A stretch of DNA of 64,000 nucleotides from Chrysomallon squamiferum (lineage: Eukaryota; Animalia; Mollusca): positions 3,534,001-3,598,000 of the forward strand of contig CM022675.1 of NCBI GenBank assembly GCA_012295275.1, written 5' to 3'. The position numbers and the translations under genes are program-made. Shown here one piece after another: positions 1 to 46,609 of this stretch. The notes below the pieces were generated by a model. It saw only the letters and a list, made by a program, of their open reading frames with translations, did no database searches and was not told where the DNA came from. Positions within the stretch are counted from its first letter, which is position 1; the number at the start of each line of letters is the position of its first letter.

Positions 1-2123
1 TTCAGTCCCACAGTTTTCATCGGGGTTTCCTTGACAACCAGTCTTATTTTGTCTTTGAACAGATCCATCTGAAACTTTATTCGAGCTTCTCGAGTTAAAA
101 CAGTAACATTTCTCTCCCTGCAATACAAACATTTAAAAATACATTTTTTACCACTTTCACATCAACTGATTCTGTCTCCCTTTCCAAATTTAACAAAAAT
201 GCATTTAATGTTACTTACTAACCTGCAATCCCACATATATTACACCTGCAGAAGTTTTCTTTTGTTGACATTCGTAGTAACATCGGCTTGCCTGGTTGTC
301 GTATTTGAGTTGATAAAAGTGTTCAGACTGTGATTCATTCACTTCTCCAATATAATTAAACAAAGGTGTATTGTCCACTGTAATCCAAACTTAATTTGTT
401 TAATACAATTGATTTTAAAAATAATATATATATATAGAATATGTTTTTAATATAACATTTAGTCTGAAAGACATATGTACACACAGATACAGATGAATAC
501 ACACACACACAGATCATTTTATTTCAGATGGAGTTTCTTATTTTGCTAGAGATTTTCAAAACAAATGTTGTGAGAGCTCCCCAAGTATTCAGAAGTTTTG
601 ATGGTTGATTTAATTTGGGCATTATTCCTCTCAAACTGTGGTTCTTTAATTTCCTAGGGCTGTTTGAAGAGAAGAGTGTATAAAAGAATTTGATTATTCA
701 TGGTCTTTTGCTCCTCTGATTAGTAACTGTTATGTGTCTATAGTAAAAAAATGTTTTTATAACCCCTCCCTTCAAACAACTCTAGCAAATTAGTGATACC
801 AGTTTGAGAGTATTACTGGTATTCCAACAGTCTTGCAATGATGTCGAAACTAAATCTACCTTTCTGACTACTCGGGATACTACGAAATCGATTTCTAGGC
901 CTCTTTTAAAAATCATCTCCCAGACTATTAGAACCATACGTATATTATACACTATACTGATATTCAACAAACAAAACAGCAACAACAATAATAACAACAA
1001 CAGCAAAACAACAACAACAACAATAACAATAATAATAAATAATCCAGACTTATATAATACAATCATTGTAAAAATAAAAAAAATAAAATAAAAACAGGAC
1101 AAAAAAGAAAAACAAAGGCACATAAATAATAATATTTGTGCAAATAAAATCAGTTGTCGTAAATACAATGTTAATGTCTTAACTAGTCGTTCCTATTGTT
1201 ATGGACTTGACTAGATGCTATCTATGCGGCTATTAACAGGAAAGAAAAAAATAAATGTGTACATGTCTGATACAATTTTTTGTTGTTTTCATTATATAGC
1301 ATGTAGCCATTATAAATTCACAGTAAGCAACATTAGCAAATATATCGATTATATACAATTTACAAATCAACTTGTTCAACATTACACAGAAATACAAATT
1401 TAATACAACTGAATATTCACAGTAGTCACAGCTTTTGGTCTGCTTATTTCTTAAAGTTTGATGATCGTAACTTCACAGTAAAGCAAATTAATAATTTATT
1501 TCACCTGTCCACATCCATGAACTGTACTGAACTTTAGCTCCAATCCAGTAAGATCCAGCTGTGACGTCACTCAGTGATGTAATATCTGACGTACTGTACA
1601 GTTGTTCTCCATGTTGATGACATGTATAAAACGCTGTGTCCCATGTGACGTCATTTAATATACGCAGAGTAGCTGTAATAAAACAGAATATATTTACTTA
1701 TAAAACAAACATTATAATTCTTTCTTTCATTGATATTATTTATTTACAAAATAAAGAGTATAATTAACATCTCTCTCTCTTTTTCTCTCTCTCTCTCTCT
1801 CTCTCTCTCTCTCTCTCTCTCTCTCTCTCTCTCTCTCCCCTCTCTCTCTCTCTCTCTCTCTCGCTCTCTCTCTCAATTAAATTTAAAATTAATAATAATA
1901 TACTTGCAACACATTCGTAAATTATTAAAAATAATTGGGAAGTTTCACTACTTTTAAAAAGATTATTTTCCATAACAAAATTATAACCATAAAAAATAGG
2001 AAAATAAAAACAAACGTATTTCACTTGTAATTAAAATATTTTACCTGATGCAGTAAACAGCTGACATAAAATCCCGCCGAAAACTGCAAGAAGCAGACGA
2101 CTTGTACTCCATACTTCAGCCAT
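1..2123 (-). CDS. Receptor copy A, CTLD/WSC family; 5' part only, runs off the window start
   Basis: Exons 2123-2045 (signal peptide MAEVWSTSRLLLAVFGGILCQLFTAS), 1672-1505 (CTLD N-half VTWDTAFYTC..L..SYWIGAKVQYSSWMWT), 377-223 (DNTP..RCYYECQQ..YVGLQ) and 117-1 (GEKCYC..GCQGNPDENCGTE, WSC-type cysteines). All GT-AG, with phases matching the paralogs. Confidence 0.85.
1770..1875. repeat. (CT)n/(GA)n microsatellite in intron 1 of copy A
   Basis: Seen directly; the same intron-1 position carries it in B (5492-5531), psi (16851-16942), C (18762-18838) and F (39084-39176), but not in E. Confidence 0.95.
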
Positions 2124-2785
2124 GACACCCTGTTAACTGTACAAAGAAGTAAAACATCATCTGTGATTAACAACACAGGTTATCCAGGGGAAAACAATGG
2201 CAAAATGATATAAGCACTTCAAAAACTCTAGTAATACACAAAAATAGTTATACGTAAATGATTAATAATAAAATGTTTTAATTACCGAAGTAGCTAGTAC
2301 TCGTTTGAAAAATTACTTTAGACTTTGTACATTAACAAATCATCATGTGAGAGAAACAGAGTGTGTGCTATCCTAGACAGATAATAACTTAGATAAACTT
2401 GAAATAAACTTGCTAAATATTGACTATCTATCTGTTTGCTTTGTGTTCGTTTTTATTATGATGGCGACGGCGGTGATGATAACTGTAATTACGATAATTC
2501 ACTTAGTATTATGAAGATGACGATGATGACTATAATTACAATAATGTTGGGTTTTTATATGTTAAGATGACGACGATGATGTTGTGATGAATAAATTAAT
2601 GATGTTGACAATGAGAATTATGAAATGGCTGGTTGAAATTATTTAAATATTTAACACAAATGTTTTGTTTAATATAATTATTATAAAAGTTTTCTGCCTA
2701 GAAACTAATAAATATATATATATATATATATATACATGCACATACACACACACATGCATGCATATACATACACTATGTACACAAA

Positions 2786-44800: not shown

Positions 44801-46609
44801 AAATGCTAGGATATTCTGAATTACTATAACAGTTCATGTACTACTAATGGTGGTTGTATGTTTTGAACTTGCAGTAACAGCAGTTGTAGGAGTGATAGTA
44901 GTAGTAGGTTCAGCTTTTATTGTTGTTACAGTATTAGCAGTAAAAGAAATTATATTATTTTAGTTTTTATTATGATTATTATTAGTTATATTATTGCTAT
45001 TGATGTTATTATCATTATTTTTTAATCACATCATCATTATTATCATTACTGTTATTATTACTATTATAATTATCATTACTACTACTACTACTACTATTGT
45101 TATTGTTAATGTTAATTCTATCATTATTGTTGTTGTCATTACTGTTGTTTCCATGAATATTATTATTATTGTTTTTGTTGTTGTTGTTGTTAATGTTATT
45201 ATTGCAGGTGCTGGTGTTACAAAATCTCATATTCTTAATGAAGGTGAAAAAGATCAAACAGGTAACAATATTTCAAACTAACAACTGTATTTAGTTATTA
45301 ATATTTGTTTACTTTAATGAATTTATTTGCATAAAAATATATTAAGAAAATATTATTTATTAATCTTTATATATATATATAAGCATTGTATGTCTGTAAC
45401 ACTAAAATTTAAGTATGCAACACTAACCATAACCAAAACTAAATTAAAATAAATGCATTGTTAATAACAATATAATCCATAGATAATGTACAGTTATTGA
45501 AATTTTTACAGCAGAATAATTTATTTATATTTTGATTTTAAAATATTTATTTATATTATAATTTATTTATTTATTTATTTATCTGTGTAGGTGTTGCTGT
45601 GGGTGTTTCTATTACTCTAATTTTACTCGTAGTTGGAGCTGTTGTTGTGACAGTTTGGATGAAAAGGTAAACATAAAAACTTTTCTGTTTTGTACTTTTC
45701 AATCTTATTAATTTTTTCTTTTTAAATTCATCTGTGAATTTTTCTACATGCAATACATTTTGTTTGTTTATTTTTTGCTTGTCATATTTTGTTTTTGTTT
45801 GTTTATTTTTTTTTTGTTTTTCATTTGTTTTATATGTTTACATTTTTGTTTATTTATTTATTTAATTTGTTAGTTATATCTATTCATTTGATTTTTATTA
45901 TTTGTTTATTTGTTTAGTTTTTTTTTTATTATATTCTTTATTTGTTTATTATTAATTTATTAATTTGTTTTTTGTTTATTTGTTTTCATTCATTTTTCTT
46001 TTGTTTTAGATTTTTTTTTTTTTTTTTTTTCTTCTTCAGATCACATAAATTTTGTTTCAAGACTAAACCAAGAAAGCAGCAATGACTGGACAAATCAGAT
46101 CTGTGAATCAGCAAAATTTGTCAGATTACGATGAGATCAAACCAGGAACTGATTCAAATTATGAGTTTGAAACGTTAACAAATGTTACCATGGCAACCAA
46201 GCCAAACTCCAGTGACTATGAACTGGCATCTGATGTAAATGCAGCAGCTGGTCAAACAAACAACAGCTACAACAACAACACTGATGAAGATGACTACAAT
46301 GTTCTAAATGACAGTCATATAAACAATAATAACTACAATCACACTGAAATCACCATTGAAGATGATTATGATACAGCTGACTCAAAACCAAAGTCCATGT
46401 CTGCTCATGACAAAACATACAACCACATCGGAGACGTCATGGAAGGTGATTACGATACAACAGCACCAAAGTCAACATCTTCTCATGATGAGACATACAA
46501 CCACATTGCTGCTGTGACTGAAGATGACTACAACATCGCTGACATGGATCTGAAAAAAGCTGACTACACTAGTCATGATTATAACCACCTTGATTCTGTG
46601 AGAGGTTGA
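38801..46609 (+). CDS. Receptor copy F: intact ectodomain and TM; tail frameshifted to an early stop at 46083-46085
   Basis: Exons 38801-38879, 39228-39395, 40094-40245, 40564-40705, 41658-41774, 42253-42453, 42670-42795, 43892-43948, [44467-44573, 107 nt, disrupted], 45208-45261, 45591-45666 (TM), 46040 onward. Last exon reads RSHKFCFKTKPRKQQ*; the homologous Tyr-rich tail continues out of frame to 46609. Confidence 0.7.
40900..41420. repeat. Degenerate TATC/TATCCTTT compound repeat in intron 4 of copy F
   Basis: Seen directly; source of the YLSI/FIYP ORF artefacts. Confidence 0.85.

What the first reader, a model, noticed from the sequence alone, without database searches (positions are those of the whole stretch)
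1..46609. Candidate invertebrate paired-receptor system: head-to-head CTLD/WSC receptors with homologous ectodomains but two different signalling tails
Seen: three divergent pairs (A/B with ATGs at 2123/5215, psi/C 17184/18496, E/F 35857/38801) with inverted homologous upstream regions. Plus-strand members encode a long acidic tail (14 Tyr in B, 17 in C, out of frame in F). The only complete minus-strand member, E, has a homologous ectodomain and TM but a 74-aa tail with three Tyr that resembles the long tail only at the juxtamembrane FCF motif. Established: vertebrate paired receptors (Ly49/NKR-P1, SIRP, LILR, Siglec) combine similar ectodomains with different ITIM/ITAM output. Inference: a co-regulated activating/inhibitory recognition module, probably haemocyte immunity or self/non-self recognition. 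I do not know a characterised family with this layout, although uncharacterised homologues may exist.
Basis: partly seen in the sequence, partly recalled or inferred. Interest (0 to 1): 0.9.

Follow-up and report, generated by a model that had tools for sequence, protein, structure and literature searches.

The report
Palindromic snail lectin-receptor pairs, two tails
A snail genome carries three head-to-head pairs (several copies broken or incomplete) of an unnamed cell-surface receptor that likely binds ligands through lectin-like domains, one side ending in a long and the other in a short tyrosine-bearing tail; the two sides have likely swapped outer-domain exons, a layout like vertebrate paired immune receptors, but nothing here shows that the two tails send opposite signals.

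Summary
The layout is real: all six ATGs, the tyrosine counts and F's frameshift check out. Exon tiling on a Gigantopelta protein and RNA splice joints support the gene models, and both tail types occur in 4 of 4 RNA runs. Each pair is an old palindrome (arms 69-86% identical) around a ~320-bp core. The core is flipped in A/B relative to psi/C and E/F, and ectodomain exons are mosaic across copies (p=0.011), so the arms likely exchange DNA. The protein family is uncharacterised but old in gastropods (Gigantopelta 29-49%, Haliotis 25-28%), and the long tail looks ancestral. The activating/inhibitory claim is unsupported. No tail has a strict ITIM, both types carry one loose ITIM-like site plus activating-type motifs, no TM is charged, and E is not closest to its partner at silent sites. 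Best reading: a diversifying two-output receptor cluster, probably for microbe recognition. Odds of true opposing paired receptors are about 20%. Similar layouts are known (SIGLEC11/16, Botryllus FF/FcoR). New variant of a known kind; interest 0.55.

The parts
1..2123 (-). Copy A, exons 1-4 only (2123-2045, 1672-1505, 377-223, 117-1); the rest is off the window, tail type unknown
   Evidence: open, GT-AG; exon 4 93% identical to F's
2790..3900 (-). Degraded transposase remnant in the A/B spacer (Tc1-like label recalled from the SPDLNP motif)
   Evidence: six-frame translation
3918..4383 (+). Spacer core X of pair A/B with its flanks; unique part 4054-4173 points towards the long-tail gene B
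5215..12457 (+). Copy B, 11 exons, open, 610 aa, long tail (exon 11812-12457); Phe replaces the last Cys of CTLD2
   Evidence: exons 2-6 tile on P0003
12458..16616 (+). 3' flank of B, collinear with F's flank up to 51404 and in part with C's: marks the tandem unit
16700..17184 (-). psi: exon 1 and the first 99 nt of exon 2; truncated relic
17351..17680 (-). Spacer core X of pair psi/C (partial, fused to psi's upstream region); unique part 17515-17395 points towards psi
18496..25524 (+). Copy C, 11 exons, long tail with 4 DYELA repeats; exon 6 (21931-22128) out of frame with two stops as assembled (198 nt, phase 1-1, so skipping it would keep the frame)
   Evidence: a TM-to-tail joint 24299/24790 listed in runs X1 and X3 (may come from any long-tail copy)
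27644..35857 (-). Copy E, 12 coding exons, open, 480 aa: signal, CTLD1 N-half, WSC (2 exons), CTLD1 C-half, CTLD2 (2 exons), three stalk exons, TM (28291-28213), short tail (27866-27644)
   Evidence: 7 of 11 coding junctions listed in RNA contigs
33891..33925 (-). Copy of the long-tail genes' stalk exon 9 inside E intron 4; splice donor deleted in the window, joined to exon 5 in one RNA contig
   Evidence: table 5c (X1, 33423/33891)
35869..36024 (-). 5'-UTR intron of E; the upstream non-coding exon region has a homologue before A, B, C and F (only its 3' end before psi), so each gene has its own promoter copy
   Evidence: joint 35868/36025 in X2
36576..37071 (-). Spacer core X of pair E/F (36664-36982) between 89-bp inverted repeats (83%); unique part 36900-36780 points towards the short-tail gene E
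38801..46609 (+). Copy F, 11 exons; two extra bases near 46068 and 46083 give a stop at 46083-46085 (15-aa tail); the long-tail frame downstream is intact
   Evidence: dN/dS of the downstream frame 0.24 vs B and 0.34 vs C

Best explanation
These are copies of an old, uncharacterised gastropod single-pass receptor arranged as tandem head-to-head palindromes, whose arms likely exchange ectodomain DNA and whose long and short tails are both predicted to signal directly through phosphotyrosines, likely giving two kinds or strengths of output for sensing microbes rather than opposite signs. SHOWN: exon structure; architecture signal peptide / CTLD half / WSC-like insert / Cys-rich CTLD half / second CTLD / Ser-Thr stalk / uncharged TM / Cys-Phe motif / tail; two tail classes; spliced transcripts of both in the same libraries; tandem repetition with flanks; a flipped spacer core; exon mosaicism; purifying selection. 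INFERRED history: an inverted duplication made a two-armed unit, one arm keeping the ancestral long tail and the other carrying a short tail; the unit was repeated in tandem; crossover and conversion between arms re-deal ectodomain exons between tail classes; copies die (psi, perhaps C and F). INFERRED function: the WSC insert, which sits where the sugar-binding loop of a CTLD would be, and the non-canonical CTLD2 bind surface glycans or proteins. Clustering lets Src-family kinases phosphorylate the tails. The long tail would act as a multi-site SH2 scaffold with acidic hemITAM-like sites (Syk/Shark type), the short tail as a compact Grb2/PI3K-type module.
For: Architecture: relative P0007 passes Pfam cut-offs for WSC (E 8.8e-7) and Lectin_C (E 7.9e-6). 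A profile of 8 relatives hits PDB 7pz2 at positions 90-176, CD94 and CD69 at 215-334 and a type II antifreeze CTLD at 32-86 (14 sequences at E<=0.01). Exons 2-6 of B, E and F tile in order on P0003. Family age: B, E and F match P0003 at 46-49%, P0005 at 29-31% and the Haliotis proteins at 25-28%. The three relatives with a TM and tail (P0005, P0007, P0011; P0010 is an isoform of P0007) have long Tyr-rich tails after K/R-L-C-F; B's tail aligns to P0005 (p 0.006) and P0007 (p 0.002), E's does not (p 0.50, 0.074; 500 shuffles each). Expression: E-specific stalk-to-TM joints 28939/29289, 28603/28887 and 28291/28549 in X3 and X4; both tail types covered in 4 of 4 runs. Exchange: core X lies once per spacer and points to the long-tail gene in A/B but away from it in psi/C and E/F. 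Exon 1 E-C 97.5%, exon 4 A-F 93%, exon 7 E-C 82% vs C-F 70%, while TM and tail group B, C and F at 86-95%. 59 informative sites are heterogeneous across exons 1-7 (permutation p 0.011). Selection: ectodomain dN/dS 0.34-0.61 in 6 of 6 pairs, long tails 0.24-0.53 in 3 of 3. Motifs: Tyr preceded by D/E in 9/14, 13/17 and 9/13 long-tail sites (p 0.01, 0.0008, 0.014); strict hemITAM DEDDYNVL in C and in F's downstream frame; E has YERL-x9-YMNV and YCVM. Oyster TM C-type lectins with a hemITAM signal through Syk in haemocytes (PMC13027682, passages).
Against: No ligand, cell type or effector is shown. Immune function rests on domain type, motifs and the pattern of duplication. No exon class shows dN/dS above 1 (0.27-0.48). 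The window's own exons reach Lectin_C only below cut-off (E 0.016-0.075 for 4 of 13 ectodomain exons) and none hits WSC. The C-half of CTLD1 is inferred from its Cys pattern, and both structure predictions of relatives failed (pLDDT 44 and 42). E's motif matches are modest (p 0.006-0.34, uncorrected, 13 patterns tried). The flip of core X could be a local inversion between its own 89-bp repeats that moved no exon, and B's 5' exons are not more E-like than F-like, so no exon swap by crossover is localised. RNA contigs are mostly 90-99% alike to the window, from one study, and cannot be assigned to single copies. No relative with a short tail was found, and pair geometry could not be seen in another species. 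SH2 preferences are recalled from vertebrates.
Confidence: 0.5

Rival explanations
1. True paired receptors: same ligand, same cell, one tail activating and the other inhibitory. The likelier assignment is long tail activating (hemITAM/Syk) and short tail damping through its SDYERL site.
For: Head-to-head layout with homologous upstream regions and ectodomain exons, as in SIGLEC11/16. Exchange between tail classes. SDYERL fits the loose ITIM used for Hydractinia Alr, [ILVS]xYxx[IVL]. Both classes occur in the same libraries. Frequent loss of one member is also seen in SIGLEC16P and CD300C. E-F is the highest of the 6 ectodomain protein identities (67% vs 60-66%).
Against: No strict ITIM or ITSM in any tail. 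The loose ITIM occurs in both classes and is not above chance (p 0.07-0.43). No charged TM residue. Arms are 69-86% identical against 98-99% in SIGLEC11/16, and E-F silent divergence is higher than among the long-tail genes. No pair has two members shown intact.
Confidence: 0.2
2. The head-to-head layout is a neutral by-product of one inverted and several tandem duplications. The short-tail gene is a diverged paralogue with its own role (adhesion, epithelial or sensory sensing), regulated independently, and the array is decaying.
For: Each gene has its own promoter/5'-UTR copy rather than one shared promoter. The A/B spacer took a ~1.1-kb transposon remnant. The psi/C unit has no working minus-strand member. 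Three of five complete or truncated copies (psi, C, F) are broken as assembled. No positive-selection signal.
Against: Both classes are under purifying selection and transcribed. F's downstream tail frame is still constrained (dN/dS 0.24), so its break is recent or an assembly error. Gap-free RNA contigs carry the letter C at 24821, which fits F's sequence there, in 4 of 4 runs (one site only). The geometry is kept in three units.
Confidence: 0.2
3. The two arms encode subunits of one heteromeric receptor (receptor plus co-receptor), so that each pair yields one complex with both tails.
For: Botryllus FF/FcoR genes are head-to-head, co-expressed and duplicated as pairs (PMC12582321). The tandem unit here includes both arms. 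CTLD2's best solved relatives include CD94, a heterodimer subunit (recalled). CTLD2 lacks the Ca/sugar motifs.
Against: Both classes have their own Tyr motifs, whereas in Botryllus the FcoR partner supplies them. C has no intact partner. The CD94 match is weak (E 7e-5) and similar to those of other CTLDs.
Confidence: 0.1

Closest known systems
Uncharacterised gastropod proteins XP_041379450.1, XP_041372259.1, XP_041372357.1 (Gigantopelta aegis), XP_046359197.2 (Haliotis rufescens), XP_046578674.1 (H. rubra)
   Same: Same ectodomain over its whole length (25-49% identity), the same K/R-x-C-F motif after the TM, and long Tyr-rich tails; P0005 shares DDDYNVL with B. Three Gigantopelta members report the same longest-contig length, which suggests a cluster.
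   Different: None has a name or function. No short-tail member was retrieved. Gene orientation in those genomes could not be seen.
SIGLEC11/SIGLEC16 (and CD300A/CD300C) vertebrate paired receptors
   Same: SIGLEC11/16 lie head-to-head (9 kb apart) with homologous upstream DNA and ectodomain exons; both pairs show gene conversion and common loss of one member (PMC5701461, PMC12447643; passages).
   Different: Ig fold. Arms 98-99% identical against 69-86% here. Inhibitory ITIM tail versus an activating member that works through an ITAM adaptor or a charged TM residue, whereas here both TMs are uncharged and both tails carry their own Tyr motifs. Their opposite function is established; here it is untested.
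Botryllus fester family / fester co-receptor (FF/FcoR) pairs
   Same: Invertebrate, head-to-head gene pairs, duplicated as pairs, with ITIM, hemITAM and other Tyr motifs (PMC12582321; passages).
   Different: Two distinct Ig-superfamily gene families acting as receptor and co-receptor, in an allorecognition locus. Here the partners are paralogues of one CTLD/WSC family with two tails.
Oyster CgCLec-HTM and CgCLec-TM1
   Same: Molluscan membrane C-type lectins with a hemITAM that signal through Syk (review PMC13027682; passages). C and F's downstream frame carry a strict hemITAM.
   Different: Described with one CRD and a hemITAM tail; the passages read mention no WSC insert, multi-Tyr tail or partner gene. 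No sequence comparison was run.
Hydractinia Alr family; Biomphalaria PTC1/PTC2; bivalve CTLD+WSC proteins
   Same: Clusters of diverse single-pass receptors, with pseudogenes and ITAM/ITIM tails in Alr (PMC9546547) and high polymorphism in PTC (PMC10875847). WSC is listed among the extra domains of bivalve CTLD proteins (PMC10140915).
   Different: Other ectodomains (Alr, PTC). The passages read describe no palindromic pairs or nested CTLD/WSC receptor.

Membership tests
Paired receptors (definition in PMC5701461) | Significant homology of the extracellular domains | tested here: met
   E/F 200 of 299 residues identical, exons 2-7; far below the 98-99% DNA identity of SIGLEC11/16
Paired receptors | Overlapping expression in the same cells | tested here: inconclusive
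   both tail types in 4 of 4 bulk RNA libraries of one study, contigs only; cell type unknown
Paired receptors | One member inhibitory through an ITIM/ITSM tail | tested here: inconclusive
   0 strict ITIM and 0 ITSM in B, C, E and F's downstream frame; one loose SxYxx[IL] in each, at chance level; function untested
Paired receptors | Activating member with a charged TM residue that couples to an ITAM adaptor | tested here: not met
   no K/R/D/E in the TM core of B, C, E or F
Paired receptors | Opposite signalling outcomes shown | not testable with these tools
   needs chimeras or pull-downs
Paired receptors | Gene conversion that keeps the partners' ligand domains alike | tested here: inconclusive
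   exchange among copies supported (p 0.011; core flip), but not preferentially between partners (pS E-F 0.415)
C-type lectin-like domain (Pfam Lectin_C) | Profile match above the cut-off | tested here: inconclusive
   window exons below cut-off; relatives P0007 and P0009 above it; profile hits CD94, CD69 and others
Ca-dependent C-type lectin (CRD) | EPN/QPD and WND motifs in the binding site (motifs recalled) | tested here: not met
   no EPN or WND; the one QPD (in E) lies in the WSC insert
WSC domain (PF01822) | Profile match with the Cys pattern | tested here: inconclusive
   no match for single exons; P0007 residues 122-189 above cut-off, P0009 below it; the window copies align through this region
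hemITAM receptors | [DE]3-x-YxxL in the tail (definition in PMC12582321) | tested here: met
   DEDDYNVL in C and in F's downstream frame (p 0.006, 0.003); B has TDDDYNVL, one residue short; absent in E. Syk binding untested
Botryllus FF/FcoR-type receptor/co-receptor pair | Partners from two different families, the signalling motifs supplied by the co-receptor | tested here: not met
   partners are paralogues and both carry Tyr motifs

The most novel reading that the evidence does not exclude
The first paired immunoreceptor system of a protostome: a palindromic gene pair in which arm-to-arm crossover and conversion re-deal lectin/WSC exons between an activating and a damping tail (with the invertible spacer core perhaps biasing which arm is transcribed), giving a snail a heritable combinatorial repertoire for telling tolerated bacteria from pathogens.
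Probability: 0.15. Interest if true: 0.85.

Novelty: new variant of a known kind. Interest (0 to 1): 0.55.

Why it matters
Molluscs have Syk-coupled lectins, but I found no description of how their receptor repertoires are balanced or diversified in pairs. This locus names a gastropod-wide, unnamed receptor family in which a WSC-like domain interrupts a lectin-like domain. It offers two natural tails on near-equivalent ectodomains, ready for chimera and SH2 pull-down tests. It also carries a readable mark of recombination between the arms of a palindrome. If the tails prove opposite, paired-receptor logic arose independently in snails. If not, it remains a clear case of receptor diversification by exon exchange between signalling classes.

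Tried and rejected
Contig depth differed between tail types (long-tail bins 19-88, short-tail bin 5.0-29; long:short about 8-15:1 in X1 and X2, about 1-2:1 in X3 and X4), but summed contig depth cannot rank genes, so I do not count it for or against co-regulation. Word-index protein searches with E exon 6 (2 candidates, 0 hits) and B's tail (629 candidates, 0 hits) found nothing; the alignment search returned 3 proteins among 7989 scored, all Gigantopelta. The profile search gave 9 hits. I dropped 4: P0001 and P0004 (moth multi-CTLD proteins, generic repeats) and P0006 and P0008 (repetitive); none of these 4 aligned to B, E or F by BLASTP. AlphaFold2 models of P0003 and P0014 were unusable, so no fold search was run. 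ESM Atlas: B's tail gave a 0.91 hit to an unnamed, mostly molluscan cluster, but at low recognition; the P0005 ectodomain gave nothing above 0.81; leads only. No complex prediction was run, because no whole ectodomain of the window could be supplied. Positive selection was not seen with pairwise counting. An attempt to place a crossover inside the genes from exon identities failed. Earlier findings of the scan: none, by place, sequence or words. Rejected: a single shared bidirectional promoter (each gene has its own copy); F's tail as a long-dead relic (still constrained); E's short tail as a mis-called exon (E-type stalk and TM joints are spliced, and no other E-type tail exists in the window).
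Full report
1. The observation. The window is AT-rich animal DNA (GC 19-40% per kb) with six homologous gene starts in 1-46.6 kb. Models built on GT-AG boundaries give B (+, 5215-12457, 11 exons, 610 aa, open) and E (-, 35857-27644, 12 exons, 480 aa, open). 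A (-) has exons 1-4 and then leaves the window. psi (-) has exon 1 and 99 nt of exon 2. C (+) has a +2 and a -2 indel in exon 6 with two stops between them. F (+) has two extra bases at the start of its tail exon and stops after 15 residues. The E tail is not alignable to the long tails beyond chance (p about 0.3), although both start with x-x-F-C-F and place the first Tyr in S-D-Y-[DE]-x-[IL].

2. Are the genes real and expressed? Four RNA runs from one study hold part of the region. Laid at 88% likeness on 24150-37000 (contigs only; 15 of 34 joints and 32 of 584 pieces shown), they list 7 of E's 11 coding junctions, a 5'-UTR intron (35868/36025) and a long-tail TM-to-tail joint (24299/24790). 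The three joints among E's stalk and TM exons are specific to the short-tail class, because the three stalk exons have no other match in the window and the TM exon only 76-81% matches over about 40 nt. The TM-to-short-tail joint itself is not listed; a 502-nt X4 contig lies on the tail with the same depth (26.7) as those joints, so I infer that it bridges them. Both tail types are covered in 4 of 4 runs. The contigs are mostly 90-99% alike, with E-type tails at about 95%, 92% and 89%, so they come from other alleles or paralogues; more than one short-tail version probably exists. Gap-free contigs carry a C at 24821 that fits F's sequence, and F's downstream frame is under purifying selection (dN/dS 0.24 vs B, Fisher p 1.6e-7), so F's frameshift is recent or an assembly error. 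Neither break was checked against reads.

3. What the protein is. A profile of exon 6 from E, F and B found 9 proteins among 1.84 billion representatives. Five are relatives over the ectodomain: three from Gigantopelta aegis and two from Haliotis, all named 'uncharacterized'; two more Gigantopelta members came. The window is therefore from a gastropod, probably nearer to Gigantopelta than to abalone (inference from 46-49% against 25-28% identity). Pfam calls WSC and Lectin_C above cut-off in the Haliotis rufescens protein. A profile of 8 relatives matches a CTLD N-half at positions 32-86, PDB 7pz2 at 90-176 (recalled as a yeast Wsc1 Cys-rich domain; the call gave only a gene code) and CD94/CD69-type CTLDs at 215-334. 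With the Cys-x-Cys...F-I-C pattern of exon 5, this reads as a CTLD interrupted by a WSC domain at the place of the sugar-binding loop, followed by a second CTLD without EPN or WND (motifs recalled). The nesting is inferred, because both folding attempts failed. The relatives that have a TM carry 329-364-residue tails with 20-23 Tyr; B's tail aligns to them above shuffles and E's does not. The long tail is therefore likely ancestral and the short tail derived.

4. How the locus is built. Inverted homology between E and F runs from an 89-bp repeat pair through the promoter to exon 7 at 69-86%: each pair is an old palindrome. Its centre is a core of about 320 bp whose unique part occurs once per spacer, at 4054-4173 (+), 17515-17395 (-) and 36900-36780 (-). 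It points to the long-tail gene in A/B and away from it in the other two pairs. At least one inversion between inverted repeats has therefore occurred, either between the gene arms (which would swap 5' ends between tail classes) or between the core's own short repeats; I could not tell which. The 3' flanks of B and F are collinear for about 4 kb and C's in part, so the array grew by tandem duplication, with psi starting right after B's flank. Exon relationships do not follow tail class: exon 1 E-C 97.5%, exon 4 A-F 93%, exon 5 C-F 84% (others 63-68%), exon 7 E-C 82% against C-F 70%; TM and tail unite B, C and F. The 59 informative sites are unevenly spread over exons 1-7 (p 0.011, 10,000 permutations). 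E's intron 4 also holds a copy of a long-tail stalk exon. Exchange is thus supported among all copies but not specially between partners: E-F silent divergence is 0.415, against 0.235-0.340 among B, C and F. All regions show purifying selection; none shows dN/dS above 1.

5. Signalling. Thirteen patterns were counted against 2000 shuffles each. No tail has a strict ITIM or ITSM. Each class has one loose SxYxx[IL], at chance level. Long tails are enriched in acidic-led Tyr and in Yxx[ILV] (p 0.003 in B, 0.009 in F's downstream frame, 0.065 in C). C and F's downstream frame have a strict hemITAM, and B has an ITAM-spaced pair in a B-specific insert (p 0.03). E has YERL-x9-YMNV and YCVM, which fit Grb2- and PI3K-type sites by vertebrate rules (recalled). 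No TM has a charged residue. Both tails look like direct, adaptor-free phosphotyrosine platforms, and both lean to the activating side. Motif reading is ambiguous, so opposite signs are not excluded.

6. Mechanism and odds. Most likely (0.5): a two-class receptor cluster that senses microbial or cell-surface ligands, signals through Src-family phosphorylation and SH2 proteins with two kinds of output, and is diversified by arm-to-arm exchange and by birth and death of copies. Structure, expression, exchange and selection are shown; ligand, cell type, effectors and immune role are inferred. Rivals: true activating/inhibitory pairs (0.2), neutral geometry with independent roles (0.2), heteromeric receptor/co-receptor (0.1).

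7. Comparison with what is known. SIGLEC11/16 are head-to-head with converted upstream and ectodomain DNA at 98-99% and a common null allele (PMC5701461). CD300A/C show conversion and repeated loss of the activating gene (PMC12447643). Botryllus FF/FcoR are head-to-head pairs duplicated as pairs (PMC12582321). Hydractinia Alr genes carry ITAMs or ITIMs among many pseudogenes (PMC9546547). Oyster CgCLec-HTM and CgCLec-TM1 use a hemITAM and Syk (PMC13027682, a review). WSC occurs among bivalve CTLD architectures (PMC10140915). Biomphalaria has polymorphic TM clusters (PMC10875847). The Gigantopelta genome paper counts C-type lectins among its pattern-recognition receptors but does not mention WSC in its main text (PMC7895826). 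Of each of these eight papers I saw only keyword passages and no supplements; the supplements of the two mollusc gene-family papers could list this family. Nine searches listed no paper whose title or abstract start describes this receptor or a palindromic two-tail pair in a mollusc; the library lacks most subscription papers. The locus works like a paired-receptor locus in its genetics, but it is not shown to be one and fails the charged-TM criterion.

8. Verdict. Observation partly confirmed, interpretation partly supported. New variant of a known kind; interest 0.55. Boldest reading (opposing paired receptors reshuffled by a palindrome): probability 0.15, interest 0.85.

Noticed in passing
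window 4054-4173, 17395-17515, 36780-36900: The single-copy spacer core is inverted in A/B relative to the other two pairs; its other half is a degenerate copy of the genes' own promoter/5'-UTR region, so it could act as an extra, direction-dependent promoter.
   Followed up: partly
window 33891-33925 (-): A stalk mini-exon of the long-tail genes sits in E intron 4 with its donor deleted between short direct repeats; one RNA contig (X1) joins it to exon 5, so other alleles or paralogues may include it.
   Followed up: partly
window 24960-25170: C's tail has four DYELA-containing repeats against one YELA site in B and F; RNA contigs show other repeat numbers (joints 25011/25127 and 25011/25197), so tyrosine number varies among long tails.
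   Followed up: no
window 2790-3900 (-): Degraded DNA-transposon transposase (Tc1-like, label recalled) inserted in the A/B spacer only.
   Followed up: no
window 54120-60312 (-): A bZIP transcription factor gene right of the array (Pfam bZIP_2, E 2.5e-16; PAR-type label recalled; the ORFs at 58120-58458 and 60010-60312 are assumed to be its upstream exons). A possible synteny anchor for finding the locus in other gastropods.
   Followed up: no
window 53648-54064: Tandem array of a ~46-bp unit, 96-97% identical, just downstream of the bZIP stop codon.
   Followed up: no
window 8776-8901: B's exon 7 has Phe where C, E and F have the last Cys of CTLD2, which would leave one disulfide unpaired.
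   Followed up: no
proteins P0009, P0014, P0017, P0018: Several relatives are annotated without a TM (Haliotis rubra isoforms, two Gigantopelta models): secreted forms or incomplete models. F as assembled would be a tail-less membrane form, so decoys may be part of the family.
   Followed up: no
window 26383-26867: RNA contigs cover the 3' flank about 1 kb past C's stop in all four runs, in a stretch conserved after B, C and F: probably a long shared 3' UTR.
   Followed up: no
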